Part shown: piece by piece, positions 13,876 to 52,837 of the stretch
Position numbering within the stretch: the stretch's first letter is position 1
How the letters are laid out: every line of letters starts with the position of its first letter
Source of the DNA: Candidatus Omnitrophota bacterium
Lineage (GTDB): Bacteria > Omnitrophota > Gorgyraeia > 2-01-FULL-45-10
Assembly (NCBI GenBank): GCA_026387175.1
Contig: JAPLME010000006.1
Coordinates: 108,078-172,077, forward strand
Direction of reading: 5' to 3'
Length of the DNA: 64,000 nucleotides
The notes under the pieces: model-generated
Databases searched by the model: none
Seen by the model: the letters and a program-made list of their open reading frames with translations, nothing else
Told to the model about the DNA's origin: nothing
Made by a program: the position numbers and the translations under genes

Positions 13876-15333
13876 TCAATACCTGTTCCATACTATTTTC
13901 ACCACGTACTGTTTGAGCCGCCTGCCGACCTTATTATTGAACGCGGACTTCACGGCGGTGCCGAACCAACTCTTCCACACTGCATCCATCAAAGTCCATA
14001 TATAGTATTTAATCCTATCCTTACCGCCCTTCTCTTTCATTATAAGTCGAACCCAGTTATCATGATAGTACCCGATCTTTTCCTTGGAGAGAGCCGGCAA
14101 GTCAAGGATCGAATCCTTCCTCTCTTCGAAACCATGTTTATCGGGTATGCCGGCAGGCATGAAACCTTTTTCCTCGCATACAGACCTGAGGACCGTACCC
14201 TTATAAGGATAGAATATATTTATGCCGTATGTGGATATCGACGGAAGACCTGCCATAGTCTTTATAGAATCATCTATCATCTCCGCAGTTTCAAAGGGAA
14301 GGCCTATTATGCATGACACCATAGTATTGATTCCGTGCCTGTGGCAGGTCTCGAAAGACTTCACAAGCACCTCTCTAGATATATTCCGTTTCATCACTTC
14401 GTTCCGGATGTAATCATTGCCCGACTCAACGCTCATCATAAGCGTCTTGCAGCCCGCTCGCTTCAATGACGCACAAACGTCATCATTGATGTGATTGGAG
14501 CGGGCCGTACACCAGAAAGGTCTTCTGATGGTCTTCTCATAAATAGCACAGAATTCCGTGATCCACCGTTTGTCGGACAGGAAAAGGTCATCCTGGAAAC
14601 ATAGAAGCTTATCGTTCTGTATCCTGTATTTTGTCAGGGTAGACGTTATCTCGCGCATCACGCTTTCAACGGTCCTGTAGCGCATGCGGTTCGTCGCCAT
14701 GCCGTATACTTTTCCGAGCGCCTCATTCGAACAGAATGTGCAACGATACGGACACCCTCTGTTAAAATGGAACAGGGCTACGTTCTGCCGGTCGATGATA
14801 TCCTGATACGGGAAGAGCTCGGTCGCCGGAAATGGCAAGGCGTCGAGATCGGCCATAAGCGGCGCGAGCTGATTCTTCACTATCCCGCCTGAGACCGAGT
14901 CCCTGTACGCGAGGTTTGGCACACTGCGCCACTCATCACCCTTTTCCAGTTTCGAGACGAGATCTAAAAGCGAGAACTCGCCTTCACCCATAATGACAGC
15001 ATCGAGCGGGCTCGCTTCTTCGATCACCACTTCAGGGAATAAGGTGGTAAAGACGCCGCCGCATACGACCAGACACGGATAGGCGCTCTTAATGCGCCGC
15101 GCGAGATCCCTTACATAAGGAAACTGGGTCTCGACAGCGGTGAATCCGACCACTGCAGGCTTGCGCGCCTTTATACCATCAAGAACACTTCCGATCTTCT
15201 TTACGCTATCTATGTAATTTATCCTGACTTCATGCCCGTTCGCCTTGAGCACGGCGCCTATCGACGCAAGGCCCGGATGATACGGCAGGCCGTGAAACGA
15301 TGACACATCCGGATATATCAACTCAACCTTCAT
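13876..15333 (-). CDS. B12-binding-domain radical SAM enzyme (class B)
   Basis: N-terminal MKVELIYPD...GHEVRINY...VVCGGVFTTLFPE (GGxHxT-like B12 domain). Radical SAM motif FNRGCPYRCTFCSNE. Confidence 0.8.
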   Translation of the reverse strand: MKVELIYPDVSSFHGLPYHPGLASIGAVLKANGHEVRINYIDSVKKIGSVLDGIKARKPAVVGFTAVETQFPYVRDLARRIKSAYPCLVVCGGVFTTLFPEVVIEEASPLDAVIMGEGEFSLLDLVSKLEKGDEWRSVPNLAYRDSVSGGIVKNQLAPLMADLDALPFPATELFPYQDIIDRQNVALFHFNRGCPYRCTFCSNEALGKVYGMATNRMRYRTVESVMREITSTLTKYRIQNDKLLCFQDDLFLSDKRWITEFCAIYEKTIRRPFWCTARSNHINDDVCASLKRAGCKTLMMSVESGNDYIRNEVMKRNISREVLVKSFETCHRHGINTMVSCIIGLPFETAEMIDDSIKTMAGLPSISTYGINIFYPYKGTVLRSVCEEKGFMPAGIPDKHGFEERKDSILDLPALSKEKIGYYHDNWVRLIMKEKGGKDRIKYYIWTLMDAVWKSWFGTAVKSAFNNKVGRRLKQYVVKIVWNRY

Positions 15334-17132: not shown

Positions 17133-18635
17133 TTAAGTCCTCACCAGCTTCGACAGCATCCTCTTCACGCCCATCGGAAGATACGGCGCTATCGCGCTCC
17201 TGACATTTTGTATCAACGCATACAACGGATAATATTTAGAGTTCCGTCTTGAGTAATGGTCAAGCCTCGTCTCTTTCCGGATCAGATCGGCCCAGCGGCG
17301 CCATTCATTATCATGCGCGGAGGTGAGGTTGACGATAGGCTGCCCGCCGTATTCAGCTACCATATCGAGATACTTCTCAACATCCTTAATCAACCCGGAA
17401 TCTTCGACGCGTCCCCATACAGGCGTCCCCGGCAGAGGCATCAGATAATTGAGCGAATAGTAATGGGCGCCTATCTCTTTCAGAAATTCTATCGTCTCTA
17501 AGATGGTTGCGTGCGTCTCCGATGGAGAGCCTATCACAATCTGTACGACGCTGAATAGGCCTATATCTCTCGTTGTCAGCAACGTGACTTCTTTATTTTG
17601 CCGGCGCGTTATCCCTTTCCGGTATTCCGACAGTATCCGATCCGATCCGGATTCCTGTCCGTACTCGATCTTTATGCAGCCCGTTTCCTTCAGCCGCCTC
17701 AGCAGGCTGGCGTTCACCCTATCGACCCGCGCGCCGGCTATCGTGTAAAACACTTCCAGTTTTTCTCTCTCAAGGGCGTCGCAGAATTCGCGGACCCATT
17801 CGGGCTTCGAATTGAACAGCTCATCCGCTATCAGGAAACCGTCAACACCATACATGTCTTTTAGGTATTTCATGTGCCTGATGACATAGTCTGTGCTGTG
17901 CTGCCTGATGCCGCGCATGTGCCTGTAACAGAAACTGCATCTGTGGGTGCATCCCCTCGCGGTCACGATAGACACATAGGACCTGCCTTCTCCCACGCGC
18001 TCTTTGATCTCGGCATAAAGCGGATTCTCGGCTATCATGCCGCTGTACGCCTTAAAGAGGTCGGTGGTAGAATCAAAGTATCTCTTCAGGTCCACGAGGT
18101 GGTATGCCGGGAACGGTATCGTGTCAAGATATGCGACCTGCTCCGCATCCTGATTCTTTAAAACCTTATCGCCGTTCCTGTATGAGATACCCGGCACGCC
18201 TTCTAACAGCTTCCCGTATGCGATCTTATCCAAAAATACCGGCAAGCTCGCTTCGGTCTCGCCATGAAACACTACGCCGATAGCTGTCTTATTGAGCAAA
18301 AGTCCTGAAACGGATGCAAGCGGCCCGCCGGCTATCTGTATTATACTATTAAACCTTTCCTTAACGGCAAGAGATATCTTCTTGGTCCTCCCGAAAGAGG
18401 TTGCGATACCTCCGTACCCTATAACTGACGGCTTAAAATCATCGATTGCTTTGAATATGCCGCTAAAATCGCCGCTATCCATAACCGTGAGCTCAAGATC
18501 ATCGATATGAGGGTCCAATATCTTCGCCCGGTGTCCAGCACGCTCGATGATCGAGGCTGCATAGAGAAGACCCAGCGGCAGCATCAACCCTCCCGGACCC
18601 CTTCTCGATGGTACATTTATGAGCAGTATATTCAT
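17133..18635 (-). CDS. B12-binding-domain radical SAM enzyme (class B)
   Basis: MNILLINVP...AGHRAKILD B12 domain; VTARGCTHRCSFCYRH. Confidence 0.8.
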   Translation of the reverse strand: MNILLINVPSRRGPGGLMLPLGLLYAASIIERAGHRAKILDPHIDDLELTVMDSGDFSGIFKAIDDFKPSVIGYGGIATSFGRTKKISLAVKERFNSIIQIAGGPLASVSGLLLNKTAIGVVFHGETEASLPVFLDKIAYGKLLEGVPGISYRNGDKVLKNQDAEQVAYLDTIPFPAYHLVDLKRYFDSTTDLFKAYSGMIAENPLYAEIKERVGEGRSYVSIVTARGCTHRCSFCYRHMRGIRQHSTDYVIRHMKYLKDMYGVDGFLIADELFNSKPEWVREFCDALEREKLEVFYTIAGARVDRVNASLLRRLKETGCIKIEYGQESGSDRILSEYRKGITRRQNKEVTLLTTRDIGLFSVVQIVIGSPSETHATILETIEFLKEIGAHYYSLNYLMPLPGTPVWGRVEDSGLIKDVEKYLDMVAEYGGQPIVNLTSAHDNEWRRWADLIRKETRLDHYSRRNSKYYPLYALIQNVRSAIAPYLPMGVKRMLSKLVRT

Positions 18636-18637
18636 CG

Positions 18638-19816
18638 TTATCCAAATTCCTTCACGTTATCCGAAAATATCTGCCAGAATAACCGATCTCCGGAATTCGG
18701 AATTTTTATATATGACTCCGCATACCGTCCATATACCCTGCCATCGATGGCGAGCTCCTTCTCCAGGTCGATTTCAAAACCATCGTTCAAGTTTATCGGA
18801 TTCTTTTCAAAGATCGACGCTATCCGTTCTATGAGCCTTCCCTGCGGGCTCCTCTTCAGATCATCCGTCGTTATGAATATTATCGGTTTCCCGTAGAGGA
18901 CTGCAAAGTTGATGGATGAGCTGTTATGCGCCATAACGAAACGTGACTTCTTCACTAGCTCGATCGTCCTTCCTTTGATGACCGGCCGATCCCCGAAATA
19001 GCCCGGGTGGTCTTCGTATCTCGATCGCGGATGAGCCGCGACAGTTATCTTTATGCCCAATCTATTTTCAAGATGGTCGAAGAAATCACGCAAAAGCGGA
19101 AAATATTCTTCGGCCGTAGAGTACGGTTTTTCATTCCGTATTATATATTCCGGATGAAAACAAACATCCTCATCCAGGAATACTCCCGTCATGCTATCCG
19201 TCGAAATGTTCGCCTTTCCCTCCCTGAGATAGATATCGTAATCGAGCGTATGGATCGGGATCGTCTTCGTGCTATTGTCTCTAGGGTAGAACCTTCCGAA
19301 ATGGACCGATCCGCTCCCGCCCGCCAGGAACATGGCTGCCGGGCGGACCCCTATCAATTTATGCGGAATTCGTAGAAACAGACTGTTCAGCATTCTTCCG
19401 AAACCGCCTTTGTCAAATACGCGGGATATCCTCGGCATGATCGCGCTGTCATTGACCAGGGGTATCGCATTTGCCCCGAACATGCAATACCGTATGTTAT
19501 TGTTCGAAAGCGCCCTGAAGATCGCATATGAGATCAGGCTGTAAGAGATCATACAGACGATCATGCATTCATCCTTATCGATCCGGGAGATCGCGTAACT
19601 CGCTCTCTTCAATGTATTAAACAGTTTGTGGCCGTCCCGATCGCCGGGATCCTCAGCTTTTACATTTCCATGAAGATCGGGATGCAGGAATGGCGTAAAA
19701 TCCCACGCTTCGACCTCAAATCCGTTCTTTCGTATGATATCTACGCCGAACCTCTCGTAGTCGCGCCGGCAAAATGGGGATTCCACGAAGAATATTATCT
19801 TTTTTACTTTAGGCAT
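18638..19816 (-). CDS. TagF/Glyphos_transf-like transferase (candidate CDP/CMP-substrate phosphotransferase or glycosyltransferase)
   Basis: AAHPRS (HP motif) and MAHNSSSINFAVLYGKPIIFI, resembling TagF SDxLITDYSSVxFDxxxLxxPIIFY. Confidence 0.35.
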   Translation of the reverse strand: MPKVKKIIFFVESPFCRRDYERFGVDIIRKNGFEVEAWDFTPFLHPDLHGNVKAEDPGDRDGHKLFNTLKRASYAISRIDKDECMIVCMISYSLISYAIFRALSNNNIRYCMFGANAIPLVNDSAIMPRISRVFDKGGFGRMLNSLFLRIPHKLIGVRPAAMFLAGGSGSVHFGRFYPRDNSTKTIPIHTLDYDIYLREGKANISTDSMTGVFLDEDVCFHPEYIIRNEKPYSTAEEYFPLLRDFFDHLENRLGIKITVAAHPRSRYEDHPGYFGDRPVIKGRTIELVKKSRFVMAHNSSSINFAVLYGKPIIFITTDDLKRSPQGRLIERIASIFEKNPINLNDGFEIDLEKELAIDGRVYGRYAESYIKIPNSGDRLFWQIFSDNVKEFG

Positions 19817-20805
19817 AACGCCCTCAACACGGATTTTATCCGGAATTTGACATTCGACTTCATGATATGCCGGCGCATTTTTTTATAATGGCCCCCGAGA
19901 TCTGCCTGCCGTCCTTCCTTGGCGACTTTCCTGAATATCCCGTACATGTGGATCTTCTGGGCAGGGCCTCTCTTCACCATCTCCAGCCCTCCGAGAGAAC
20001 AGAAGTATTCTAGCGTCTCAGGCGAAAAATAATAGGTATGCGCGTTCTGAAGCTGCAGCATCCCAAAATTCATTATATTCGGGACCGCTATATATACGAC
20101 GGACCCCGTATCAAGATGTTTCGTCAGCTTCTTAAGGAAGCTTACCGGGTTCAGCATATGTTCAAACACATGGTTAAGGATGACCACGTCATAGGTGCCG
20201 TTTATATTTGTTATATCACCCTGCACCATCTCCATCCCATTATCCCGGCCGAACTTTACAAGGCTCGGACTATACTCCACGCCTAGGACCTTGGCTCCCG
20301 CATCCCTGAACGGCACCAGATTCCAGCCGCCCCCGGCGCCCAGCTCCACAATAGTCATGCCAGGCACGATCTCTCTAACTTTTCTTATCTCATCGAATAT
20401 ATAGTAGCCGTACTTAGTATCATATTTGAATTTTGCCGTGTCCAGATAGTCGTCGCCCTCGTAGCACCTCCGGTATAAATCCGAAGAATAGAAGCGCCGA
20501 AGCTCCTCTTCCGTCATCCTTGGGTTCGACTGGATGAGCCCGCATTTTGTGCAAACCACTGAATCCTGTATCATGGCGTACCTGTCCGCTGATGCCAGGA
20601 GATCGAATGCGCGGGCGCCGCACAGACATTCGACAGTCTCGTATTCAATAAGGCCATCCGTCACCTTACGGTTAAACTCCCGTACAAGTTCAGCCTGAGA
20701 TGCCGTGATCTTCATAGCAGCCTTTGAGGGAGAGTGAAATTCGGCGAATGGGATCAGTTTTTTCTTTATCTCGATATCTACGCCTTTTTTTATTTTCGTC
20801 TTCAA
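19804..20805 (-). CDS. Class I SAM methyltransferase with N-terminal zinc-ribbon
   Basis: CLCG...CTKCG ribbon; IVELGAGGGWNL and VVILNHVFEHM. Paralog of 7860..8945. Confidence 0.7.
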   Translation of the reverse strand: MKTKIKKGVDIEIKKKLIPFAEFHSPSKAAMKITASQAELVREFNRKVTDGLIEYETVECLCGARAFDLLASADRYAMIQDSVVCTKCGLIQSNPRMTEEELRRFYSSDLYRRCYEGDDYLDTAKFKYDTKYGYYIFDEIRKVREIVPGMTIVELGAGGGWNLVPFRDAGAKVLGVEYSPSLVKFGRDNGMEMVQGDITNINGTYDVVILNHVFEHMLNPVSFLKKLTKHLDTGSVVYIAVPNIMNFGMLQLQNAHTYYFSPETLEYFCSLGGLEMVKRGPAQKIHMYGIFRKVAKEGRQADLGGHYKKMRRHIMKSNVKFRIKSVLRALCLK

Positions 20806-20806
20806 T

Positions 20807-21949
20807 CTAAACCTCTCTCAGTACCCTAAGGGCTTCTTCGAGCCCGAACTCAACCGGATTATTGCTCAATGCGGGCGTAAGGTCTAAGCCCCTCTTAGCT
20901 ATAAAACCGCGGTTTTTTTCCGTCACACCGTAATCACTGAATTTTTTAGTAAGGCACGATAACGGGCCATAGACTGATAGGTCGCTGCTGAACCTCTCTG
21001 CCTTCATCCTTATCGATAAGCCTTTATCGGCGACATCTATCAGATCATAAAGATCTGCATACAAGTTGCACCCTTTTTCCATATTTATCTTCACGACCGC
21101 CGGTAATAGATATGCCACCGCCAGACCGTGCGGAATATTGTGGTAGAGCCCCATCGCGTAAGATATCGAGTGGCATGCCCCGGTATTGGAGTTAGCGATC
21201 GCTATGCCGGCCAGAGTCGAGCCGAGAAGGACCTTCCTCCGCAAGTCCATATTCTGCCTGTCGTTAAGAACTTTGGGAAGATTGTTATAAACGAGCCTGA
21301 ATGCCTCTTTTGAGTAGATCCTCGTTATATCGTTCGCACACCGTGCCGTATACGACTCCACCGCATGGCCTATAGCATCCATTCCCGTGGAGGCCGTAAT
21401 ACTGTCCGGCATCGTGGCCGTCAACGATGCGTCCAATATGGCATAATCCGGAATGACATACTTGCCCCCGATGCCTCTTTTGAACTTTGTCCTTTCGTTG
21501 ACCAGGACCGCGCCACCTGTCACTTCGCTTCCTGTACCGGCGGTTGTCGGCACCATCATCTTCTTTACGCCAGACGTAAAGATCTTGCCGGTCCCGTGAT
21601 ATTCCTCGACTTTGCCGGCGTTTACGGTCATGACGGAAAGCGCCTTAGTCAGATCAAGCACGCTTCCCCCGCCAATACCTATATACAGGCCCGTCTTCAC
21701 CTTCCTCAATTTTCCGGCATATTCGTTTACCATATCCGTAGTGGGTTCAGCTGATTTCACGGTAACCGCTTTCACCGCGGCAATAGTTTCGATAGCTTCG
21801 AGCATCTTTACTACGCTTTCTTGTCCGGCAATGTTAGCATCGAGTATAACCGTAATATTCTTCGGCATCTCGTCTCTGACGATCGCGCCGATATCGGATG
21901 CCAAGTTATCCGACAATATCAGCTTTGTTGTCGACTCAAACTTTATCAT
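20807..21949 (-). CDS. Iron-containing (group III) alcohol dehydrogenase-family oxidoreductase
   Basis: GIGGGSVLDLTKA, VPTTAGTGSEVT, DAIGHAVESY, HSISYAMGLYHNIPHGLA (metal-binding histidines). Confidence 0.75.
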   Translation of the reverse strand: MIKFESTTKLILSDNLASDIGAIVRDEMPKNITVILDANIAGQESVVKMLEAIETIAAVKAVTVKSAEPTTDMVNEYAGKLRKVKTGLYIGIGGGSVLDLTKALSVMTVNAGKVEEYHGTGKIFTSGVKKMMVPTTAGTGSEVTGGAVLVNERTKFKRGIGGKYVIPDYAILDASLTATMPDSITASTGMDAIGHAVESYTARCANDITRIYSKEAFRLVYNNLPKVLNDRQNMDLRRKVLLGSTLAGIAIANSNTGACHSISYAMGLYHNIPHGLAVAYLLPAVVKINMEKGCNLYADLYDLIDVADKGLSIRMKAERFSSDLSVYGPLSCLTKKFSDYGVTEKNRGFIAKRGLDLTPALSNNPVEFGLEEALRVLREV

Positions 21950-23150
21950 TCTTTTGTCCCCTCAGCTTCATTAAGGCTTTCTTGGTGCTATTCACCATGT
22001 ACCCAAAATCTTCATCGGACATCCATTGATGGAAAGGAAACGAGACCATGTTGTCGAATAAGTTATCCGTATTCGGGCATTCGGCCTTCCCCTGGCCGCA
22101 TTTCTTGTAGAGATCATATCTGTACAAAGGATAATACTGGACTATCGCCTGTACCTTATACTCAAAAGCCAGCGCTTTTATAAGATCGTCTCTCGTCGAT
22201 GCTATTCCGTGCTTCCGGCCTTCATACTTTGCTGGCAATAGATGATATGATGGTTCACATCCATCCGGCACCTTCTGAAAGACCAGTTCAGGGAATGCGG
22301 ATAGCGCCTTCCTGAACTCGAGATACCGCGCTTTCCTGGAATTATTAAGGCTCTCTATTCTTTTGAGAAGCTTATACCCTATCGCGCATTGTATTTCAGA
22401 AATCGTAAATTTATAGGGAAGTTCATTGTCGAGAACCGTATCTATGTTTGTCATAGCCGGCTTCCAGTAGAACTCTTTCTTATCGAACGGCTTTGCGCCG
22501 AAATTTCTCATACCGGGCACCTTGGCCGCAATACCCGCATCCTTAACATATAGTGCTCCGCCTTCGCCGAAAGTCGTCATGTTCTTCTGTGCATGGAAGC
22601 TGAATACCCCGAAATCGGCGAGTGTGCCCGCTCTTTTTCCGGCATGCATCGCCCCGAATGCCTGGGCGGCGTCTTCCACTATAAGTATCTTTTTATCGGC
22701 GCCTATCTTTATGAACTTACCGACATCAGCGGTCACGCCGTATAAGTGGACCAGCACTATCGCTTTCGTCCGTTTCGTGATCTTATTAATTACATCATCG
22801 GCGCTTATAACCCAGGTCAAAGGGTCAATATCCGCCCAGATGATCCTTGCTCCCCTCCTTAAGAATGGCAAGGCCGAAGCGGTGAATGTATGGCCGGGGA
22901 CTATAACTTCATCCCCTTCTTTAAGGCCGCAGAACGCCGCTACGAGTTCAAGCGCAGATGTCGCGCTGTTCAGGGCGCAAACGCTGCCGGTATCTGCCCC
23001 CAGGTATCTGGTAAGCTCTTCTTCGAATAATTTCAGGTATTTACCCTGTGTAAGCGGATCAGCCGTCTTCATAACATTTACAATAAAGGATATCTCCTCA
23101 TCGGTAAAATCATGAGCCTTTCCGCTCCACGGTATTTTCCAGCTATCCAC
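21936..23150 (-). CDS. DegT/DnrJ/EryC1/StrS-family PLP-dependent sugar aminotransferase
   Basis: CALNSATSALELV, GDEVIVPGHTFTAS, LIVEDAAQAFG, FSFHAQKNMTTFGEGG (PLP lysine region). Confidence 0.8.
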   Translation of the reverse strand: MDSWKIPWSGKAHDFTDEEISFIVNVMKTADPLTQGKYLKLFEEELTRYLGADTGSVCALNSATSALELVAAFCGLKEGDEVIVPGHTFTASALPFLRRGARIIWADIDPLTWVISADDVINKITKRTKAIVLVHLYGVTADVGKFIKIGADKKILIVEDAAQAFGAMHAGKRAGTLADFGVFSFHAQKNMTTFGEGGALYVKDAGIAAKVPGMRNFGAKPFDKKEFYWKPAMTNIDTVLDNELPYKFTISEIQCAIGYKLLKRIESLNNSRKARYLEFRKALSAFPELVFQKVPDGCEPSYHLLPAKYEGRKHGIASTRDDLIKALAFEYKVQAIVQYYPLYRYDLYKKCGQGKAECPNTDNLFDNMVSFPFHQWMSDEDFGYMVNSTKKALMKLRGQKNDKV

Positions 23151-23182: not shown

Positions 23183-24700
23183 TCATGGCACGAAAGCGTC
23201 GAGCGCCTCTTTTACGCCTATGCTCATCCTGCCGCGGCCCGCAGCAGAACCATCGCTTCCCGGGGCGGGAAGGTTGAACTTCTCCGGTATTGAGATGCGC
23301 CCATCCACGTAATCGATAAATTTATAGAATATATCCATGAGCCTTTCAGCTGAGATCTCAGGATTCTGTATAACAGGACCGTATCTCATATTGATCTGTC
23401 TCGACATGCCCTTAAAACCGGGCCTATCAGACACCTCTATATAGCCGAATTTCTTCGAGACGGAATATATCGCTGTCCCGGCGTACGGCGCGACGAAAGT
23501 GACATCGCAGCTCTTCGGCTTTATGCGTTTATTGAGCTTTATTGTCTCAAAAATATCTTCCTCGTATTCACCGGGAAAACCTATCATATTATTCGCAGTA
23601 GTGCGTATGCCGAACTCGTGTATAAGTCCAAACACATCTTCTATCTTCTTATTAGTAACCGAGCGGCGCAGGATGTGCCTTCTCATCCATTCACTGCCGG
23701 ACTCTATCCCTATTCCAATGCCGCAGCATCCGGACGCTTTAAGCATCTCCAGCTTCTGCCTCGTGAGCGTTTCGACGGTAGTGTTTATCCAGTAAGGCAG
23801 GGTTACCTTCAGCTTCCACAATGCCGCAAATTGCGCCATCTTCCTATCCGGTAATAGGAGAAAGTTGTCGTCGCAGAAGAATATGATGTCGAATCCGTAC
23901 CTTTCCTTTAAAGACTTTATCTCGCCGATAGCCCTTTCAACCGACTTCCTGCGATGGTAGCTGCCTGAATCGCGGAATAATTTCTGATATGAATCATTTA
24001 TGCAATAAGAGCACCTGTTGAGGCAGCCTCGCGACATCTCGAAATATCCGGCTTTATAAAGTTTCCCGTTGTACGCCTTCACAAAGTGGCGGCTGTCCCA
24101 AAAGTCGAGATCCTGAAATGGAAGCGTATCAAGATCCACGAACGGCCTTAACGGGTTACGCCGCACCTTTCCGTTATCCTTAAACCATAGGCCCTTTACA
24201 CCCCTGACATCTTTATGGGCAGACAAGAGGCCGCAGAACTCAGCCATAGCATCTTCTCCTTCACCCTGGATTATATAATCGATATTGGGGTTGTCGATAA
24301 GGATATGCGGCACTATGGTCGGTGTAGAACCTCCCGCGATTACCGGTATATCCTTGTCTATGCCGTTGATGATACTGAGAAGATGGTCCGCATATTGATA
24401 ATTGTCTTCCACTATGCTTATCGCTATAAGGTCAGGTGAAAACCTCATGAACTTTTCTTCCAGCATTCTGTCCACTTTTTCCGGCGAAAGCCCCTCGTAA
24501 AGGTTTGACGTATCCGTAGGAAGGACCAGTTTCGCCTTCTCCCTGACAGCATTATCGGCGTGTTCTGTCTTCAGTATAAATGTCGTGTCAAAGAGCTCTA
24601 TCTTGTGGCCGCGGACGGACAGCATGGTCATAATAACCGAAATCCCAATAGGGATCCTGCCATAACCGTTGGCATTCGGATAGATAAACAGTATCTTCAC
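23183..24700 (-). CDS. B12-binding-domain radical SAM enzyme (class B)
   Basis: MKILFIYPN...RGHKIELFD; EMSRGCLNRCSYCIND. Confidence 0.8.
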   Translation of the reverse strand: MKILFIYPNANGYGRIPIGISVIMTMLSVRGHKIELFDTTFILKTEHADNAVREKAKLVLPTDTSNLYEGLSPEKVDRMLEEKFMRFSPDLIAISIVEDNYQYADHLLSIINGIDKDIPVIAGGSTPTIVPHILIDNPNIDYIIQGEGEDAMAEFCGLLSAHKDVRGVKGLWFKDNGKVRRNPLRPFVDLDTLPFQDLDFWDSRHFVKAYNGKLYKAGYFEMSRGCLNRCSYCINDSYQKLFRDSGSYHRRKSVERAIGEIKSLKERYGFDIIFFCDDNFLLLPDRKMAQFAALWKLKVTLPYWINTTVETLTRQKLEMLKASGCCGIGIGIESGSEWMRRHILRRSVTNKKIEDVFGLIHEFGIRTTANNMIGFPGEYEEDIFETIKLNKRIKPKSCDVTFVAPYAGTAIYSVSKKFGYIEVSDRPGFKGMSRQINMRYGPVIQNPEISAERLMDIFYKFIDYVDGRISIPEKFNLPAPGSDGSAAGRGRMSIGVKEALDAFVP

Positions 24701-25572
24701 TTAAGCTTCTTCCTAATCTCCAGCTCTTTCTCCGTGATCCTCTTGACGCCATCCCCAAGAAGCATATCTATATCCTTTATGCGCTTATAGAGCATATTCA
24801 TCGCATGGACCTCAAGGCTGGCAGCATGGTCAGAACCCCACATGCCGTGATCAAGCGTTATGTGTCTCTCCACGACTTTCGCTCCCAAGACGCTTGCGAT
24901 AACGGTGGGTTCAAGGTCATACTCGTGTCCGCTGTAGCCGACTATGCATCCGTATCTTTTCTGCAAAAGCGGTATAACCCGCAAGTTCACTTCAGCGGCC
25001 GGTGTAGGGTATGTGGAGTTAGTATGCATAATGACATAGTTCCCTTTCGAATACTTCTCCAGCACCTCAACGGCCTCATCGACCTCCTCTATTGTGCTCA
25101 TCCCGGTCGACAGGATCACGGGCTTACCGACCCTGCAGGCCTGGCCAATAAGCTCCTTGTCGGTCAGCTTGGCCGACGGTATCTTGATAAAAGAGATGTC
25201 ATACTTCAATATAAAATCCAGGCTGGGCAGATCCCATATTGAAGCGGTCCATGCCAGAGGCTTTTCTTTGCAATACCTGTCGATGTAAGAATATTCCGCG
25301 TCCCCGAACTCGACCTTATGCCGATATTCAAGATACGTCATCCTTCCCCATGGGGTATCGCGCATCACGCCTTTCTGGTGCTCCGGGACGCATATCTCGG
25401 GAGTCCTCTTCTGGAATTTCACACAATCCCAGTTGCAAGCGAAGGCCGCGTCAATAAGCCTCTTGGCGATATCGAGGTTTCCGTTGTGGTTGATCCCTAT
25501 TTCGGCGATCATGAATACCGGGGAACCTTCTCCGATAGTATGATCAGCGACCTTTATCACTTTCTGCGCCAT
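24697..25572 (-). CDS. NeuB-family nonulosonic/ulosonic acid synthase (N-acetylneuraminate synthase-like TIM barrel, no SAF/AFP domain)
   Basis: VFMIAEIGINHNGNLDIAKRLIDAA...VKFQ; the barrel is colinear with NeuB/PseI/LegI. The protein ends at GDGVKRITEKELEIRKKLK, which corresponds to the very start of the NeuB SAF domain. Confidence 0.75.
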   Translation of the reverse strand: MAQKVIKVADHTIGEGSPVFMIAEIGINHNGNLDIAKRLIDAAFACNWDCVKFQKRTPEICVPEHQKGVMRDTPWGRMTYLEYRHKVEFGDAEYSYIDRYCKEKPLAWTASIWDLPSLDFILKYDISFIKIPSAKLTDKELIGQACRVGKPVILSTGMSTIEEVDEAVEVLEKYSKGNYVIMHTNSTYPTPAAEVNLRVIPLLQKRYGCIVGYSGHEYDLEPTVIASVLGAKVVERHITLDHGMWGSDHAASLEVHAMNMLYKRIKDIDMLLGDGVKRITEKELEIRKKLK

Positions 25573-25575
25573 AGC

Positions 25576-26271
25576 TTATCCCCGCTTTTTTAAAATATTA
25601 TTTTTCATGAAATATTCACACACTTTTAAATCCTCGGCATTATCTATCTCGTACGATCTCCAGAAGTCCATAATATACATGCGCATCCTGCCGCCCAAAC
25701 GGTTCTTGCATCGTTTTAGTATCTCCGGTTTAAAAAGATATATCGAGCCGTTCTCCAGATAAAGCGGTTCCCTGTCCTGCCTGCGGCCTCTCTCCTTATA
25801 ATTAAAACTGACGCTCTTAAGCCGGGGGCCGATCTTCTTCCAAATGGTATAATCCTCCAGGATGGCCGCCGAAAACATCGAGTCGGCCTTCGTCGCGCGA
25901 AACTGCGCTATGGCCATATCTATATCTTTTGCGCGGCGAAGCGGCGAAGTAGCCTGAAGGAAGACCACCAGATCTATCCCGGCGCCTCTCTTCTCTATCT
26001 CCGATAGGGCATGCATAAGGGCATCTTCCGAGCTCGCAGTATCGGTCGATAGACGTTTCGGGCGCCTTATCACCTTCGCGCCGTATTTCTCCGAGACGGC
26101 GGCGATCGTATCGTCATCCGTTGTCACATATACGTCATCGATAAGGCTGCTCTCGAGCGCCTGCCGGATCGTCCAGGCTATCAGCGGCTTTCCACAGAAA
26201 TCCACAATATTCTTTTTCGGTATCGACTTCGAGCCGCCCCTGGCGGGAACGATGCAGATTATATGCGCCAT
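25576..26271 (-). CDS. neuA: CMP-N-acylneuraminate-type cytidylyltransferase (NeuA/CTP_transf_3 family)
   Basis: IVPARGGSKSIPKKNI, VYVTTDDD, FLQATSPLR, YLENGSIYLF. Confidence 0.85.
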   Translation of the reverse strand: MAHIICIVPARGGSKSIPKKNIVDFCGKPLIAWTIRQALESSLIDDVYVTTDDDTIAAVSEKYGAKVIRRPKRLSTDTASSEDALMHALSEIEKRGAGIDLVVFLQATSPLRRAKDIDMAIAQFRATKADSMFSAAILEDYTIWKKIGPRLKSVSFNYKERGRRQDREPLYLENGSIYLFKPEILKRCKNRLGGRMRMYIMDFWRSYEIDNAEDLKVCEYFMKNNILKKRG

Positions 26272-26771
26272 ATCCCACCGAAGATACAGCCCGCAAGCTC
26301 ACGAACGGCTCCAGAGCCCGAGGGGGTCTTTAAGATCATCCGCGACACGTCCTTGATCGCTCTATATGCGTCGGAAGGGCAGACGGGCCAGCCAACGACT
26401 GCCATCGCGTCAAGATCATTCACGTCATTACCTACATAAACGACCTTCCCGAGCGGGATGCCTTTAATTTTGCAATATCTTTCAAGGGCATCCCTCTTAT
26501 CGTCGATACCGTACTTGATGGGGATGCGAAGCTTGCGCGCGCGAAAGACCGCCGTCTTATTCTTTTCTGTAGTGAGGATGACCTGTTCGACCCCGGAGCG
26601 GCGCATCATATCGATCGCCAGGCCGTCCGACCTGTTGACCATCACGCCCTCCGCCCCTTTCTCGCTGACGATCGCCCTATTATCCGTAAGCACACCGTCA
26701 AAATCGTATACGATCAGCCCTACATCTTTCAACTGTATCTTATGCACACGCTTTTTCAAATGAACCTCCAC
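26259..26771 (-). CDS. KdsC/YrbI-like HAD phosphatase (ulosonate-phosphate phosphatase family)
   Basis: LIVYDFDGVLTDN, TTEKNKTAV, VYVGNDVNDL, GSGAVRELAGCIFGG. Confidence 0.7.
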   Translation of the reverse strand: MEVHLKKRVHKIQLKDVGLIVYDFDGVLTDNRAIVSEKGAEGVMVNRSDGLAIDMMRRSGVEQVILTTEKNKTAVFRARKLRIPIKYGIDDKRDALERYCKIKGIPLGKVVYVGNDVNDLDAMAVVGWPVCPSDAYRAIKDVSRMILKTPSGSGAVRELAGCIFGGIWRI

Positions 26772-28653
26772 GAACGCCTGAAGAAAGGCCGTTCTCTTCC
26801 ATGTATCTTTCGACCGAATATTTTAACGATGGCCGGATCTCGTCGGTAGCGGAGAGCCTGTCCATAAAAGTCATTATGAAGCGCCCGACCCTTGCGGGCG
26901 CAGCAAGATCGTTAAAATAGTTAAACTCGCGCGCCCAATTTGAAAAATCTCCTATAGACGTATCGCCCGCAGCAGAGAGTCTGATCGCTTCCTTCATCTC
27001 ATCGAGCGTCTTGAAGAAGAAACGCTGCTGGACATCTTCATAAAATGCGAACCTGCCCACGCCACCGCAATCCCAGTGCACGGCGGGAGTCCCATAAACG
27101 GCGGCGACGATACCGGCTGAATTCAGGCCGTAACATACTGCGAGGTCCGCCTCCCTCGAAACGGCAAGCGGGCTCTGGCCGTGATCGATGACCGCCAGCC
27201 GGCCTTCCTTGCCGAGAGATTCCACCTTCGAAACGATCTCTTCGCCGCGCGGCAGCTGCCTCAACGCAGCGATATCGTAGGACTTGCTCTTGATGATGCC
27301 TCCCCATCGCGGGTTCTGCTCTAATAACTCCAGCATCTCCAGATAGAACCTCGCGAGAGACCCGGGAGAATGGAGCACTTTATATCCCGCGGAATTATCG
27401 AATATCGCCATGATAAAATCAAGGCCGCCGGCCATCTTTTGAAGCCCAGCAGGGGTCTCTTTCCCGGGCGTAAGCCAGAGCCCGGAAGGCAGGATGTTCA
27501 TCGACATATTGCCCAGCTTCATCATGCTCTCTTTAATGTTGTCTCCCCATACGAAATAGACGTGCTGAGGGAAGATGTGCGTAGGCAGGGGATAAAAATA
27601 GTAATTGGACCAATTATATCCGAACATGATGCCGCCGGCGTCTTCGATCGCGCGCGACTGGACGTCCTGTCTCCACGAAGTCTCCTGATGCTGTATAAGC
27701 ATCCTAGCTTTAAAGCGCACAAATACGGCCCGATATAGAATGTACAATATTTCGTACTCGAAGGTGTATATCGCAAACCATCGCGGCTCGTTGGAGCTTC
27801 GAAGACGTCTCTTAAAAAAGATGGGCGCCAGATCGGATGGCTTCAATCGCGCCAGCTTCATCAGCGCGACGATGTCCAGCCTGAGCCACTTGAAGGCCCG
27901 GTCCGTGATATCATCGACCGTCTCTTTAAAATGGCCGCGGTCATCTCTATCTATGTAATTTATTATGTCGAATGTCTCCGCAACTATATGCCTGCGCCAG
28001 AAGGCGAAGTCGAATACATCCGTCTTCACGTACTCCACCCAGACCGAGGGCTTCGTTTGGCAGGCATTACCGAGACCCCTTTGCGGAATGAATCTTACCA
28101 GGAGGGCTAAGAACGCATAGTACAACGGTTTCAGGTAATGCTTGATCGTATCCTTGAGACCGTATTCCTTGATGCAGTAGTTCCGCCTATCGTAAAATCC
28201 ATCGAGGGCCCTGTTTGCGGGATGCCGCGTTATATAAAGTATATTATCGCAATCGACCGCGCCGTCGATCTTCAGTTCGACCATACCGATGAATTCGCAT
28301 TGGCTGCGGACTATCGCCGCAAGATATGACTTGATCGTCTTCCGTGACCGTCCGTCGGCTCCGGCGCAACAGTCATCGCAGAAACGGTCGATGCTCTTAT
28401 CCATGCGCTCCCAGATGCCCTGAGACGCGGCAAAACCTTCCCCATCCCTCTGGCTTATCGATAGCTCCGCAGGCCGCAAAAGAGAACCTGCGCCAACGGC
28501 TGCAATAGCTTTCATGATGAGCTTTGCCGTAGGCGTTACGCAATGTTCGTCGTAAAATATCTCTGACGATCCTGCGATCCTCCTGAAAAGCATGGAGACT
28601 ATCTGTGGCGAGCCCAGCCTCTGGATCCATATAACGTTCTTTTGCCTCTTCAT
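26740..28653 (-). CDS. Large (about 637 aa) TagF-like GT-B protein, paralog of 10353..12299
   Basis: C-terminal ADLAVCYGLNSAGIVAAVYGTPAVHW is the same degenerate TagF-like motif. Length and architecture are similar to 10353..12299. Confidence 0.35.
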   Translation of the reverse strand: MKRQKNVIWIQRLGSPQIVSMLFRRIAGSSEIFYDEHCVTPTAKLIMKAIAAVGAGSLLRPAELSISQRDGEGFAASQGIWERMDKSIDRFCDDCCAGADGRSRKTIKSYLAAIVRSQCEFIGMVELKIDGAVDCDNILYITRHPANRALDGFYDRRNYCIKEYGLKDTIKHYLKPLYYAFLALLVRFIPQRGLGNACQTKPSVWVEYVKTDVFDFAFWRRHIVAETFDIINYIDRDDRGHFKETVDDITDRAFKWLRLDIVALMKLARLKPSDLAPIFFKRRLRSSNEPRWFAIYTFEYEILYILYRAVFVRFKARMLIQHQETSWRQDVQSRAIEDAGGIMFGYNWSNYYFYPLPTHIFPQHVYFVWGDNIKESMMKLGNMSMNILPSGLWLTPGKETPAGLQKMAGGLDFIMAIFDNSAGYKVLHSPGSLARFYLEMLELLEQNPRWGGIIKSKSYDIAALRQLPRGEEIVSKVESLGKEGRLAVIDHGQSPLAVSREADLAVCYGLNSAGIVAAVYGTPAVHWDCGGVGRFAFYEDVQQRFFFKTLDEMKEAIRLSAAGDTSIGDFSNWAREFNYFNDLAAPARVGRFIMTFMDRLSATDEIRPSLKYSVERYMEENGLSSGVRGGSFEKACA

Positions 28654-30044: not shown

Positions 30045-30700
30045 GGCTTCTCCACGAACGATATGGCGTTGGCATACGGCAATTTATTGATCCTGGTCTT
30101 CTTGTCGGCAAAGAAATCGTCTATAGCCTTATTGGCGCCCGCAAATGCGCCATAATCGTCAAGTATGACTATCCCGCCTCTTGAGACAAGCGGATAGAGT
30201 TCCTCGAGACAGACCGCCGTGGCCTCATGAAGATCGACGTCTATATGCAGAAGTGATATTTTGAGGTGCGGATTCTTCGACTTGTATTCCGGCACGGTCT
30301 TTAAAATATCCCCTTCGACCAGTTCTATGTTCTGGTAAAGCTCGAGCTTCTTAAGGAGGGTGATGAATTCCTCTTTCCCTATGCTCCTGCTTCCGGCTTC
30401 ACGGATGAACTGCGCCCTCTTCGCTACGTCCTTTTCAAACCTGGCTTCCGGGAACTCCCCGAATATGTCGAAACCTATTATCTTCTTTGAGTAAACATTC
30501 TCGAAAAGAGCCCTGAACTTGATGAGCCTGGAGAGGGATACGCCTTTAAAGACACCGCATTCCACTATGTCGCCCGCAATGTTCGATACCTTCCTGAATA
30601 GCTCAAGATGCGTCGCGAACTTGCTTATCCTGTTTATCGGAGCGGTCAGGTAAAAATTATTTTCGTAATAGAACTGCTTGGAAAGATCGAGCTCTATCAT
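30041..30700 (-). CDS. TylF-family sugar O-methyltransferase
   Basis: IVECGVFKGVS, LLHIDVDLHEAT, GGIVILDDYG. Confidence 0.65.
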   Translation of the reverse strand: MIELDLSKQFYYENNFYLTAPINRISKFATHLELFRKVSNIAGDIVECGVFKGVSLSRLIKFRALFENVYSKKIIGFDIFGEFPEARFEKDVAKRAQFIREAGSRSIGKEEFITLLKKLELYQNIELVEGDILKTVPEYKSKNPHLKISLLHIDVDLHEATAVCLEELYPLVSRGGIVILDDYGAFAGANKAIDDFFADKKTRINKLPYANAISFVEKP

Positions 30701-52833: not shown

Positions 52834-52837
52834 GATC

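What the first reader, a model, noticed from the sequence alone, without database searches (positions are those of the whole stretch)
20807..23150. Overlapping Fe-alcohol dehydrogenase and DegT aminotransferase: candidate Kdo8N-type (KdnB/KdnA-like) oxidation-transamination pair
A group III metal-dependent ADH homolog and a DegT-family aminotransferase overlap by 14 nt. In Shewanella, a metal-dependent ADH homolog (KdnB) plus an aminotransferase (KdnA) convert Kdo-8-phosphate into 8-amino-3,8-dideoxy-octulosonate. The presence of KdsB/KdsC homologs in the same operon makes an analogous amino-ulosonic acid route plausible here, though this is inference only.
Basis: inference. Interest (0 to 1): 0.6.

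Follow-up and report, generated by a model that had tools for sequence, protein, structure and literature searches.

The report
Amino-sugar-acid tailoring gene pair
Two overlapping genes, an alcohol dehydrogenase and an aminotransferase, belong to a five-enzyme cassette found in many bacteria and archaea that probably makes an undescribed amino derivative of a sialic-acid-like sugar, using the same chemical logic as the known Kdo8N pathway but different enzyme lineages.

Summary
On the minus strand, a DegT-family aminotransferase (21936..23150) overlaps a group III Fe-alcohol dehydrogenase (20807..21949) by 14 nt. Both have intact catalytic motifs and their own ribosome-binding sites.

The ADH is not a glycerol-1-phosphate dehydrogenase or a dehydroquinate-synthase-like enzyme. 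Neither protein is an orthologue of KdnB or KdnA, which rank 32nd of 41 and 22nd of 56 in profile searches of solved structures.

- The pair travels with a short NeuB-type synthase, a KdsC-type phosphatase and a NeuA/PseF-type cytidylyltransferase in 10 of 11 independent relatives' loci, from Omnitrophota to methanogens. None of 74 generic Fe-ADH loci has these neighbours.
- One lineage fuses the ADH to the phosphatase.
- In Leptospira interrogans the same aminotransferase clade sits beside a genuine KdnB-family enzyme (48% identical) inside the published nonulosonic-acid cluster.

The most likely function is to oxidise and then aminate the terminal CH2OH of a NeuB-made ulosonic acid before CMP activation. 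The carbon backbone and the position of the amino group are inferred, not shown. I rate this a new variant of a known kind, with interest 0.6.

The parts
21936..23150 (-). DegT-family PLP-dependent aminotransferase (404 aa, GTG start), the upstream gene of the pair
   Evidence: PF01041 3e-84. PLP Lys189 is invariant. It belongs to a 100%-bootstrap clade that includes the L. interrogans NulO-cluster aminotransferase. The best solved relative is 7b0d at 243 bits; KdnA scores 172 bits and ranks 22/56.
20807..21949 (-). Group III (Fe-type) NAD-dependent alcohol dehydrogenase (380 aa), the downstream gene of the pair
   Evidence: PF00465 and PF25137. GGGS, D37 and D191/H195/H260/H274 are invariant. 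Its clade has 99% bootstrap support and is separate from the KdnB family. The best solved relatives are methanol DH, DhaT and FucO; KdnB scores 122 bits and ranks 32/41.
21936..21949 (-). 14-nt overlap between the aminotransferase stop and the ADH start (translational coupling)
   Evidence: Sequence read directly. Homologous pairs overlap by 4 nt or are separated by 2-34 nt in 8 other loci.
24697..25572 (-). Short NeuB-type PEP-condensing ulosonic-acid synthase (291 aa, no SAF domain)
   Evidence: PF03102 2e-70. It keeps the equivalents of NmNeuB E25, K53, Q55, K129, S132, S154, Y186, S213, H215, E234, H236 and D247, but E134 is Lys here. It is 60-71% identical in the core related cassettes (35-40% in the Pacearchaeota and Latescibacterota loci).
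25576..26271 (-). NeuA/PseF-type CMP-ulosonic-acid cytidylyltransferase
   Evidence: PF02348 4e-30. NCBIfam PseF scores 147 bits, below the 206 cut-off, against KdsB at 72 bits. A CTP_transf_3 gene is present in 11/11 related loci.
26259..26771 (-). KdsC-type (C0 HAD) ulosonate-phosphate phosphatase
   Evidence: DFDGVLTD motif. NCBIfam KDN-9-P phosphatase scores 83 bits and KdsC 80 bits, both below cut-off. The best solved relative is 3mmz at 146 bits. It is fused to the ADH in P0059 and to the cytidylyltransferase in L084, L087 and L090.
23183..24700 (-). B12-binding radical SAM enzyme between the synthase and the aminotransferase (accessory, probable C-methylation)
   Evidence: PF04055 and PF02310. 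Homologues lie next to the cassette in L003 (37%) and L084 (32%). The function is inferred.
19804..20805 (-). SAM methyltransferase immediately after the ADH (accessory, possible N-methylation of the new amine)
   Evidence: PF13489. A 31%-identical homologue follows the cassette in L087, and DREV-like methyltransferases follow it in L001, L084 and L094. The function is inferred.
18638..19816 (-). 392-aa protein of unknown family, a candidate dedicated transferase for the product
   Evidence: No Pfam or NCBIfam hit. Homologues lie directly after the ADH in L084 (42%) and L087 (37%), and in L006 (29%). The role is inferred.

Best explanation
The two genes are the tailoring pair of a conserved five-function cassette that makes a CMP-activated amino-ulosonic acid.

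Shown: the pair is a metal- and NAD-type group III alcohol dehydrogenase and a PLP aminotransferase with intact active sites. The genes are translationally coupled and inherited together with a short NeuB-type synthase, a KdsC-type phosphatase and a NeuA/PseF-type cytidylyltransferase.

Inferred mechanism:
1. The NeuB-type enzyme condenses PEP with a sugar phosphate. Mannose-6-phosphate is the most parsimonious candidate, because the window has no ManNAc-forming enzyme. The product is an omega-phospho-ulosonic acid.
2. The phosphatase exposes the terminal CH2OH.
3. The ADH oxidises it with NAD+ to the aldehyde.
4. The aminotransferase pulls this unfavourable step forward by converting the aldehyde to CH2NH2.
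5. The cytidylyltransferase makes the CMP-sugar.
6. The neighbouring methyltransferase, B12-radical-SAM enzymes and an unknown 392-aa protein then modify and transfer it.

This is the Kdo8N logic (KdsC, KdnB, KdnA, KdsB) carried out on a NeuB-derived backbone by non-orthologous enzymes.
For: Cassette conservation. Aminotransferase and ADH are adjacent in 11/11 independent relatives' loci. A cytidylyltransferase is present in 11/11. The short NeuB and the KdsC-like HAD are present in 10/11. Hosts include Treponema primitia, Prevotella, Latescibacterota, Methanoregula and Pacearchaeota. Identities of the five genes rise and fall together.

Specificity control. Of 80 Fe-ADH loci from reference genomes, only clade members and a sister clade have an aminotransferase or NeuB within 10 kb. 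The other 74 have none.

Fusions. An ADH-HAD phosphatase fusion, P0059, occurs on 3 contigs from 2 sources. Cytidylyltransferase-HAD fusions also occur.

Non-orthologous replacement. In L. interrogans the same aminotransferase clade (53% identity, nested in the clade at 100% bootstrap) lies next to a cytidylyltransferase and a KdnB-family enzyme. That enzyme is 48% identical to KdnB (382 bits, E = 2e-113), and the locus is inside the published NulO cluster (PMC3438082).

Minimal locus. L091 has only the aminotransferase, the ADH and the cytidylyltransferase. This ties the pair to the activation step and not to the synthase.

Enzyme type. The nearest solved relatives of the ADH all interconvert primary alcohols and aldehydes.

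Operon structure. Gene spacing from 26771 to 17133 runs from a 14-nt overlap to a 32-nt gap.
Against: There are no biochemical data. Neither protein is a KdnB or KdnA orthologue. The closest solved relatives of the aminotransferase (7b0d, perosamine synthases, DOI aminotransferases) act on ring ketones and not on aldehydes. The synthase substrate and chain length are unknown, and the synthase has Lys, Leu or Met where NmNeuB has Glu134, a residue reported as catalytic (PMC8208679). Bacteroidota-type cassettes add a UDP-GlcNAc-2-epimerase-family gene, so the backbone may differ between lineages. Gene fusion and synteny show a shared pathway but not the order of steps or the carbon attacked. The role of KdnB as acting on free Kdo at C8 is recalled from Gattis et al. 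2013, which I could not read here.
Confidence: 0.55

Rival explanations
1. The pair belongs to the same cassette but oxidises and aminates a secondary hydroxyl of the finished ulosonic acid. Examples are C5 of Kdn, which would give neuraminic acid by a ManNAc-independent route, or C7/C8 of the side chain.
For: The closest solved relatives of the aminotransferase act on ring or cyclitol ketones. The synteny evidence fits this reading equally well. Neu5Ac was detected in L. interrogans, which carries the related module (PMC3438082).
Against: The ADH clade sits among primary-alcohol/aldehyde Fe-ADHs and not among glycerol-dehydrogenase-type enzymes (GldA NCBIfam only 5e-6). In Leptospira the partner is a KdnB-family enzyme. 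As I recall it, the known KdnB reaction is at the terminal CH2OH. No conserved N-acetyltransferase accompanies the cassette.
Confidence: 0.15
2. The pair acts before the synthase. It oxidises and aminates a sugar phosphate, as in the NtdC/NtdA kanosamine logic, and the amino-sugar phosphate is then condensed with PEP by the NeuB-type enzyme.
For: The cassette contains no other enzyme that could supply an unusual NeuB substrate. The short NeuB lacks the SAF domain and Glu134, which suggests a non-standard substrate. DegT enzymes such as NtdA act on sugar phosphates (one search lists NtdA among the hits).
Against: Locus L091 and the Leptospira arrangement link the pair to the cytidylyltransferase and not to NeuB. 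The ADH-phosphatase fusion fits a phosphatase-then-ADH order. No Fe-ADH of this subgroup is known to oxidise sugar-phosphate secondary alcohols (own knowledge). The KdnB-family partner in Leptospira points to a finished ulosonic acid.
Confidence: 0.12
3. The pair makes genuine Kdo8N for the LPS core, acting on Kdo supplied by KdsA (encoded elsewhere) and the KdsC/KdsB encoded in the same window.
For: A bona fide KdsB (291 bits against a 193 cut-off) and KdsC (123 against 107) lie at 8946..10302 in the same minus-strand cluster. Omnitrophota are diderm bacteria (own knowledge, not checked here).
Against: The pair is 11 kb from kdsB/kdsC and is embedded among its own synthase, phosphatase and cytidylyltransferase. 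The same cassette occurs in archaea (Methanoregula, Pacearchaeota) that have no LPS. Neither enzyme is KdnB- or KdnA-type.
Confidence: 0.05
4. The pair builds or trims a non-sugar substituent that is later attached to the glycan, for example an amino-alcohol or aminoalkyl group made from a small aldehyde. Alternatively, the ADH works reductively as an aldehyde reductase.
For: The top NCBIfam similarities of the ADH are to small-molecule enzymes, all far below cut-off: ErcA, sulfoacetaldehyde reductase, lactaldehyde reductase and the phosphonate-linked PsrA. The window is rich in tailoring enzymes.
Against: This does not explain the strict co-inheritance with NeuB, HAD and the cytidylyltransferase in 10/11 loci, the ADH-HAD fusion, or the KdnB-family replacement in Leptospira. 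No PEP mutase or other small-molecule pathway gene was found in the window.
Confidence: 0.08

Closest known systems
KdnB/KdnA of Shewanella oneidensis (Kdo8N pathway; PDB 5k8c, 5k8b)
   Same: A group III metal-dependent ADH-fold enzyme is paired with a DegT-family PLP aminotransferase. The genomic and functional setting includes a KdsC-type phosphatase and a CMP-ulosonate synthetase. The proposed chemistry is the same: CH2OH to CHO to CH2NH2 on a 3-deoxy-2-ulosonic acid.
   Different: The window proteins are not orthologues. KdnB scores 122 bits against 230 for methanol DH, and KdnA 172 bits against 243 for 7b0d. They form separate clades. The backbone synthase is NeuB-type and not KdsA. The hosts include anaerobes and archaea, so an NAD+-dependent dehydrogenase is expected, whereas KdnB is annotated as an O2-dependent oxidase.
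Leptospira interrogans NulO cluster segment: NeuB fusion (YP_002104), aminotransferase (YP_002103), CMP-synthetase (YP_002102) and a kdnB-like gene (PMC3438082; L094)
   Same: The aminotransferase clade is the same (53% identity). The set of functions is the same: NeuB-type synthase, putative phosphatase, cytidylyltransferase, Fe-ADH-fold oxidoreductase and a DREV-like methyltransferase.
   Different: The Leptospira oxidoreductase is KdnB-family (48% identical to KdnB, 32% to the window ADH). Its synthase is a 753-aa fusion with SAF and AP_endonuc_2 domains. The published paper leaves the aminotransferase as '?' and does not mention the oxidoreductase.
Phosphorylated-intermediate NulO routes: Bacteroides thetaiotaomicron KDN-9-P synthase and phosphatase (BT1714/BT1713, PDB 3e8m), and the animal NANS/NANP route
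   Same: A NeuB-type synthase is combined with a KdsC-type or HAD phosphatase and a CMP-synthetase, which implies a sugar-6-phosphate substrate. The window phosphatase hits BT1713 (70 bits) and the KDN-9-P phosphatase NCBIfam model (83 bits).
   Different: Those routes have no ADH or aminotransferase. The window phosphatase is below every equivalog cut-off, and the synthase lacks the SAF domain and Glu134.
Dehydrogenase / DegT aminotransferase / N-methyltransferase / B12-radical-SAM C-methyltransferase tailoring sets in aminoglycoside pathways (GenD2/GenS2/GenN/GenD1 of gentamicin; recalled from memory)
   Same: The window shows the same order of chemical logic: oxidise a hydroxyl, transaminate, then methylate. 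The gene order is B12-rSAM, aminotransferase, ADH, methyltransferase.
   Different: The enzyme families for the oxidation step and the substrates both differ. This is a resemblance of logic only.

Membership tests
Group III (iron-type) alcohol dehydrogenases, PF00465/PF25137 | Domain match above the Pfam gathering score, a GGGS dinucleotide-binding motif, and Asp/His/His/His metal ligands | tested here: met
   97.5 bits against 31.3, and 122.4 against 27. G93-S96, D191, H195, H260 and H274 are invariant in 27 sequences.
KdnB subfamily (3-deoxy-D-manno-octulosonate 8-oxidase, cd08184) | Closer in sequence to KdnB than to other Fe-ADH subfamilies, and in one clade with KdnB | tested here: not met
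   KdnB scores 88 bits (single sequence) and 122 bits (profile), ranking 32/41, against 230 bits for methanol DH. In the NJ tree, KdnB, 3rf7 and the Leptospira ADH group at 100%, and that group joins the window clade in only 14% of bootstraps.
KdnB subfamily | Oxidises the terminal CH2OH of a free 3-deoxy-2-ulosonic acid | not testable with these tools
   This is inferred only from synteny, the ADH-phosphatase fusion and replacement by a KdnB-family gene in Leptospira.
   PF13685 scores only 28.9 bits over residues 14-106. G1PDH gives 3e-6 and GldA 5e-6, against 5e-62 for classical Fe-ADH models. There is no DHQ_synthase hit.
DegT/DnrJ/EryC1/StrS aminotransferases, PF01041 | A full-length domain match, and the catalytic PLP lysine (not the histidine of the dehydratase members) | tested here: met
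   283.6 bits, covering residues 23-388. K189 in SFHxQK is invariant in 14 sequences.
KdnA subfamily (Kdo8N transaminase) | Closest solved or characterised relative is KdnA | tested here: not met
   KdnA 5k8b scores 99 bits (single sequence) and 172 bits (profile), ranking 22/56. 7b0d scores 243 and perosamine synthases 215.
Nucleotide-sugar 4-aminotransferase equivalogs (PseC, WecE, ArnB, LegC, DesI) | Score above the curated NCBIfam cut-off | tested here: not met
   PseC 217/423, PRK11706 207/375, WecE 162/435, LegC 149/420 and ArnB 146/631. The aminotransferase forms its own 100%-bootstrap clade apart from LegC-like and other DegT genes of the same loci.
NeuB-type ulosonic-acid biosynthesis cassette (synthase plus CMP-synthetase, with or without phosphatase) | The pair is co-located and co-inherited with a NeuB-family synthase, a CTP_transf_3 enzyme and a KdsC-type HAD | tested here: met
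   The window gene order is HAD, cytidylyltransferase, NeuB, rSAM, aminotransferase, ADH. All functions are present in 10/11 independent related loci, and in 0/74 generic Fe-ADH loci.
NeuB/PseI/LegI equivalogs (for the neighbouring synthase) | Score above the NCBIfam cut-off, a SAF domain with Arg314, and Glu134 | tested here: not met
   NeuB 237/400 and PseI 171/340. There is no SAF domain. Position 134 is Lys. The PEP and metal ligands are conserved.

The most novel reading that the evidence does not exclude
The cassette makes a sugar not yet described in nature: an omega-amino nonulosonic acid, for example 9-amino-3,9-dideoxy-nonulosonic acid ('Kdn9N'), possibly N- or C-methylated afterwards. 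The cassette has spread by horizontal transfer through Omnitrophota, Thermodesulfobacteriota, termite-gut Treponema, gut Prevotella, Latescibacterota, methanogens and DPANN archaea. A KdnB-family variant is present in the NulO cluster of pathogenic Leptospira. Three different Fe-ADH lineages (the window clade, its sister clade and the KdnB family) would then have been recruited for the same oxidation step.
Probability: 0.4. Interest if true: 0.75.

Novelty: new variant of a known kind. Interest (0 to 1): 0.6.

Why it matters
If the inference holds, it defines a whole class of surface sugars that carry both a positive charge (amine) and a negative charge (carboxylate). These would occur across many uncultured bacteria and archaea and in pathogenic Leptospira. 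As I recall, loss of Kdo8N in Shewanella increases sensitivity to polymyxin, so a terminal amine on an acidic surface sugar could plausibly affect resistance to cationic peptides, phage and lectin recognition, and serology. The finding assigns a testable function to the aminotransferase left as '?' in the Leptospira NulO cluster and to the unremarked kdnB-like gene beside it. It also offers a compact five-gene set for making a new CMP-sugar enzymatically. Finally, it shows that automatic labels such as 'iron-containing alcohol dehydrogenase' or 'dTDP-4-amino-4,6-dideoxygalactose transaminase' hide a coherent pathway.

Tried and rejected
- A genome-contig scan with the ADH alignment chose generic Fe-ADH motifs and returned only two true clade members. 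I reused the other 78 loci as a negative control.
- A metagenome-contig scan with the single ADH found only one distant relative.
- The papers on Kdo8N biosynthesis (Gattis 2013) and KDN9P/KDO8P phosphatase specificity (Lu 2009) are not held. What I say about the KdnB substrate and phosphatase specificity residues therefore rests on memory, and I did not attempt to- versus 9-carbon specificity.
- Literature searches for this cassette found nothing relevant: nonulosonic + Fe-ADH + aminotransferase, Leptospira + nonulosonic + alcohol dehydrogenase, and 7B0D.
- I considered Lys135 of the synthase, at the NmNeuB Glu134 position, as a phosphate-binding signature. I rejected it as diagnostic because the position is K, L, M or D within the cassette clade.
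- I considered the ADH-B12-rSAM 'fusion' P0104 as Rosetta-stone evidence. I rejected it because the ADH part is truncated at about residue 290 on a 3-kb contig.
- Clade-specific ADH residues such as R353 could not be placed relative to the active site, because the structure tool returns no coordinates. I ran no structure prediction.
- A phosphonate route, suggested by the PsrA-like and P-methyltransferase-like weak hits, was rejected because no PEP mutase or related gene is in the window.
Full report
**Observation**

The window carries two minus-strand ORFs at the stated coordinates.
- The upstream ORF, 21936..23150 (404 aa), starts at a GTG preceded by GGAGGA. It is a full-length DegT/DnrJ/EryC1 aminotransferase (PF01041, 3e-84).
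- The downstream ORF, 20807..21949 (380 aa), starts at an ATG preceded by GAGGGG inside the aminotransferase gene. It is a group III alcohol dehydrogenase (PF00465 8e-28, PF25137 2e-35).
- The two overlap by exactly 14 nt (ATGATAAAGTTTGA).
- Identical proteins are recorded from a Candidatus Omnitrophica MAG.
- The catalytic apparatus is intact. In the ADH, GGGS 93-96, Asp37 and the metal ligands D191/H195/H260/H274 are invariant in 27 relatives. By analogy with FucO Asp39, Asp37 marks NAD over NADP preference; that is established knowledge and was not tested here. In the aminotransferase, the PLP lysine K189 is invariant in 14 relatives.

**What the two proteins are not**

The ADH is not a glycerol-1-phosphate dehydrogenase, a glycerol dehydrogenase or a dehydroquinate-synthase-like enzyme.

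It is also not a KdnB orthologue.
- Against solved structures, KdnB (5k8c) scores 88 bits with the single sequence and 122 bits with a clade profile, ranking 32 of 41.
- Methanol dehydrogenases, AdhE-type domains, 1,3-propanediol oxidoreductase and lactaldehyde reductase score 188-230 bits.
- In a neighbour-joining tree of 55 Fe-ADHs (380 columns, 500 bootstraps), the window clade has 99% support.
- KdnB, 3rf7 and a Leptospira enzyme group at 100%, and the two groups join in only 14% of replicates.

The aminotransferase reaches no NCBIfam equivalog cut-off (PseC 217/423, WecE-type 207/375, LegC 149/420, ArnB 146/631). KdnA (5k8b) ranks 22 of 56 with a clade profile, at 172 bits against 243 for 7b0d.

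Membership in the KdnA and KdnB families is therefore tested and not met.

**Context in the window**

All 64 kb form one minus-strand glycan cluster. Around the pair, gene spacing ranges from a 14-nt overlap to a 32-nt gap. The order is:
1. KdsC-type HAD phosphatase (26259..26771)
2. NeuA/PseF-type cytidylyltransferase (25576..26271)
3. Short NeuB-type synthase without SAF domain (24697..25572)
4. B12-radical-SAM enzyme (23183..24700)
5. Aminotransferase
6. ADH
7. SAM methyltransferase (19804..20805)
8. A 392-aa protein of unknown family (18638..19816)
9. Another B12-radical-SAM enzyme
10. An ABC exporter

The true KdsB and KdsC of the organism lie elsewhere in the window (9532..10302 and 8946..9554) and pass the curated cut-offs. 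The cytidylyltransferase next to the pair scores 147 bits on PseF and only 72 on KdsB.

The synthase keeps the PEP- and metal-binding residues of Neisseria NeuB: the equivalents of E25, K53, Q55, K129, S132, S154, Y186, S213, H215, E234, H236 and D247. It lacks the SAF domain with Arg314. It has Lys at the position of Glu134, a residue described as catalytic in PMC8208679. That position is K, L or M in the core clade, which I cannot explain.

**Comparative genomics**

The ADH belongs to a clade of 40-61% identical proteins. Members come from Omnitrophota, Thermodesulfobacteriota, Treponema primitia, Prevotella, Elusimicrobiota, Verrucomicrobia, Latescibacterota, Methanoregula and a Pacearchaeota archaeon.

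I looked up eleven independent loci of clade members.
- The aminotransferase and the ADH are adjacent in all eleven.
- A CTP_transf_3 gene is in the module in all eleven.
- The short NeuB and the KdsC-type HAD are present in ten. The exception, L091, has only the aminotransferase, the ADH and the cytidylyltransferase.
- Sequence identities of the module genes rise and fall together. In most loci NeuB is 60-71%, the cytidylyltransferase 56-59%, the aminotransferase 50-63%, the ADH 51-60% and the HAD 42-55% identical; the Pacearchaeota NeuB is only 35%. All are lower in the Latescibacterota loci.

As a control, I used 80 Fe-ADH loci drawn from one genome per species.
- Only the two clade members and four members of a sister clade have a DegT gene or a NeuB gene within 10 kb.
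- The sister clade has 99% bootstrap support and joins the window clade at 86%.
- The remaining 74 loci have neither gene nearby.

The sister-clade loci again show ADH, DegT, cytidylyltransferase and NeuB together.

**Fusions**

In one lineage the ADH carries the KdsC-type phosphatase as a C-terminal domain. This is P0059 (546 aa), found on three contigs from two data sources, 34% identical to the window phosphatase with E = 4e-31. In three other loci the phosphatase is fused to the cytidylyltransferase. These fusions tie all the functions to one pathway. The ADH-phosphatase fusion is what one would expect if the phosphatase product is the ADH substrate.

**The Leptospira link**

The aminotransferase clade includes proteins of L. 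interrogans, L. weilii, L. santarosai and others (53% identity). In a tree with other DegT genes from the same loci, the clade including Leptospira has 100% support, and the Leptospira sequences are nested inside it.

In the L. interrogans chromosome this gene lies in the nonulosonic-acid cluster described by Ricaldi et al. (PMC3438082). In that paper it is YP_002103/NP_711795, with the function listed as '4, 13, or ?'. The local gene order is:
1. A 753-aa NeuB fusion. The authors interpret its C-terminal domain as a phosphatase, implying a phosphorylated intermediate.
2. The aminotransferase
3. A 209-aa cytidylyltransferase
4. A 355-aa Fe-ADH-fold protein
5. A SPASM radical-SAM enzyme
6. A DREV-like methyltransferase

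That 355-aa protein is a genuine KdnB-family member. It scores 382 bits (E = 2e-113) and is 48% identical over the full length to KdnB 5k8c, but only 32% identical (113 bits) to the window ADH. An annotation pipeline has already labelled it kdnB in one comparative paper, without comment (PMC8510873).

So the same aminotransferase lineage works beside a KdnB-type enzyme in Leptospira and beside the window-type ADH elsewhere. This non-orthologous replacement is the strongest available argument that the window ADH does the KdnB-type job.

**Proposed mechanism**

Shown: the identity and integrity of the two enzymes, their translational coupling, and their co-inheritance with the synthase, phosphatase and cytidylyltransferase.

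Inferred:
1. The NeuB-type synthase condenses PEP with a sugar phosphate. No ManNAc-forming enzyme or kinase is present in the window, so mannose-6-phosphate and a Kdn-type product are the most parsimonious guess.
2. The phosphatase frees the terminal hydroxymethyl group.
3. The ADH oxidises it with NAD+.
4. The aminotransferase converts the aldehyde to an amine and drives the equilibrium.
5. The cytidylyltransferase activates the amino-ulosonic acid.
6. The adjacent methyltransferase and B12-radical-SAM enzymes may N- and C-methylate it. The 392-aa protein, conserved after the ADH in L084, L087 and L006, may transfer it.

My confidence that the pair tailors the cassette's ulosonic acid by oxidation and transamination is about 0.75. 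My confidence in the specific terminal-carbon, post-phosphatase version is about 0.55.

**Rivals**
- A secondary hydroxyl of the finished acid could be the target, for example C5 of Kdn to give neuraminic acid. The nearest solved relatives of the aminotransferase act on ring ketones, which favours this. The ADH's relatives are primary-alcohol enzymes and the Leptospira partner is KdnB-type, which argue against it (0.15).
- The pair could act before the synthase on a sugar phosphate (0.12).
- It could make true Kdo8N from the window's KdsB/KdsC. The cassette's presence in archaea and the distance to kdsB/kdsC argue against this (0.05).
- It could make a small non-sugar substituent (0.08).

Bacteroidota-type cassettes carry an extra UDP-GlcNAc-2-epimerase-family gene, so the backbone may not be the same in all lineages.

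**Comparison with the known, and novelty**

The system works like the Kdo8N pathway. It is not a member of the KdnA or KdnB families, and it is built on a NeuB-type backbone and not a KdsA-type one.

I found no paper in the held library that describes the cassette or an omega-amino nonulosonic acid. The library is incomplete, so this is absence of evidence only.

I classify it as a new variant of a known kind. Interest is 0.6: a specialist would find the breadth of distribution, the three independently recruited ADH lineages and the Leptospira connection noteworthy. The prediction can be tested directly with five genes. It remains an inference without chemistry.

Noticed in passing
window 1-64000 (e.g. 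13876..15333, 17133..18635, 23183..24700, 28650..30044, 33347..34849, 36823..38307, 49796..51355, 51352..52980, 53913..55394): The whole window is one minus-strand glycan super-cluster. It holds about 9-11 B12-binding radical-SAM genes, three SPASM/twitch radical-SAM genes (6802..7899, 41784..43169, 52838..53911) and more than twelve SAM methyltransferases. This is an unusually large methylation capacity for a polysaccharide locus.
   Followed up: partly
window 8946..9554 and 9532..10302 (minus strand): Genuine KdsC (TIGR01670, 123 bits against a 107 cut-off) and KdsB (NF003952, 291 against 193) lie here. They are distinct from the phosphatase and cytidylyltransferase next to the finding, and no KdsA is in the window.
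   Followed up: yes
window 24697..25572 (minus strand): The NeuB-type synthase lacks the SAF domain. It has Lys where Neisseria NeuB has Glu134, reported as one of three catalytic residues (PMC8208679). The position is K, L or M in the core cassette clade and D in Latescibacterota. I have no explanation.
   Followed up: partly
window 30697..31362 and 31367..32719 (minus strand): Two further weak PseF-like cytidylyltransferase homologues lie here, the second fused to a SAM methyltransferase. That makes four CTP_transf_3 genes in the window.
   Followed up: no
window 60656..61456 and 34846..35589 (minus strand): A papain-family cysteine protease (PF00112, 3e-26) and a transglutaminase-like protein are embedded in the glycan operon.
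   Followed up: no
window 10353..12299 and 26740..28653 (minus strand): Two large proteins (648 and 637 aa) have only weak matches to Leptospira O-antigen-associated families of unknown function: TIGR04326 (64 bits) and the TIGR04417 PFTS-motif family (33 bits). Related Pfam families (Lept_O_ant_chp1, LIC12162) recur in the relatives' loci.
   Followed up: no
L092:6382-8022 and L093:2177-3817 (protein P0059): A natural fusion joins the ADH (N-terminal) to the KdsC-type phosphatase (C-terminal). It occurs in a cassette that also has a UDP-GlcNAc-2-epimerase-family gene after NeuB.
   Followed up: yes
L090:1109-12344 (Pacearchaeota contig): One archaeal contig carries two ADH-aminotransferase pairs. 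One is with a short NeuB and a cytidylyltransferase-HAD fusion. The other is with a GT2, a cytidylyltransferase and a NeuB-SAF-cytidylyltransferase fusion.
   Followed up: no
L094:11893-12960 (L. interrogans chromosome CP047506.1): A KdnB-family gene, 48% identical to Shewanella KdnB, sits inside the published Leptospira NulO cluster. It is not discussed in PMC3438082 and is only auto-labelled kdnB in PMC8510873.
   Followed up: yes
window 20807..21949, residues G146, N151, T256, R353-G354-x-D356: These residues are at least 90% conserved in the cassette ADH clade and rare in generic Fe-ADHs. R353 is a candidate carboxylate binder, but its position relative to the active site was not determined.
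   Followed up: partly
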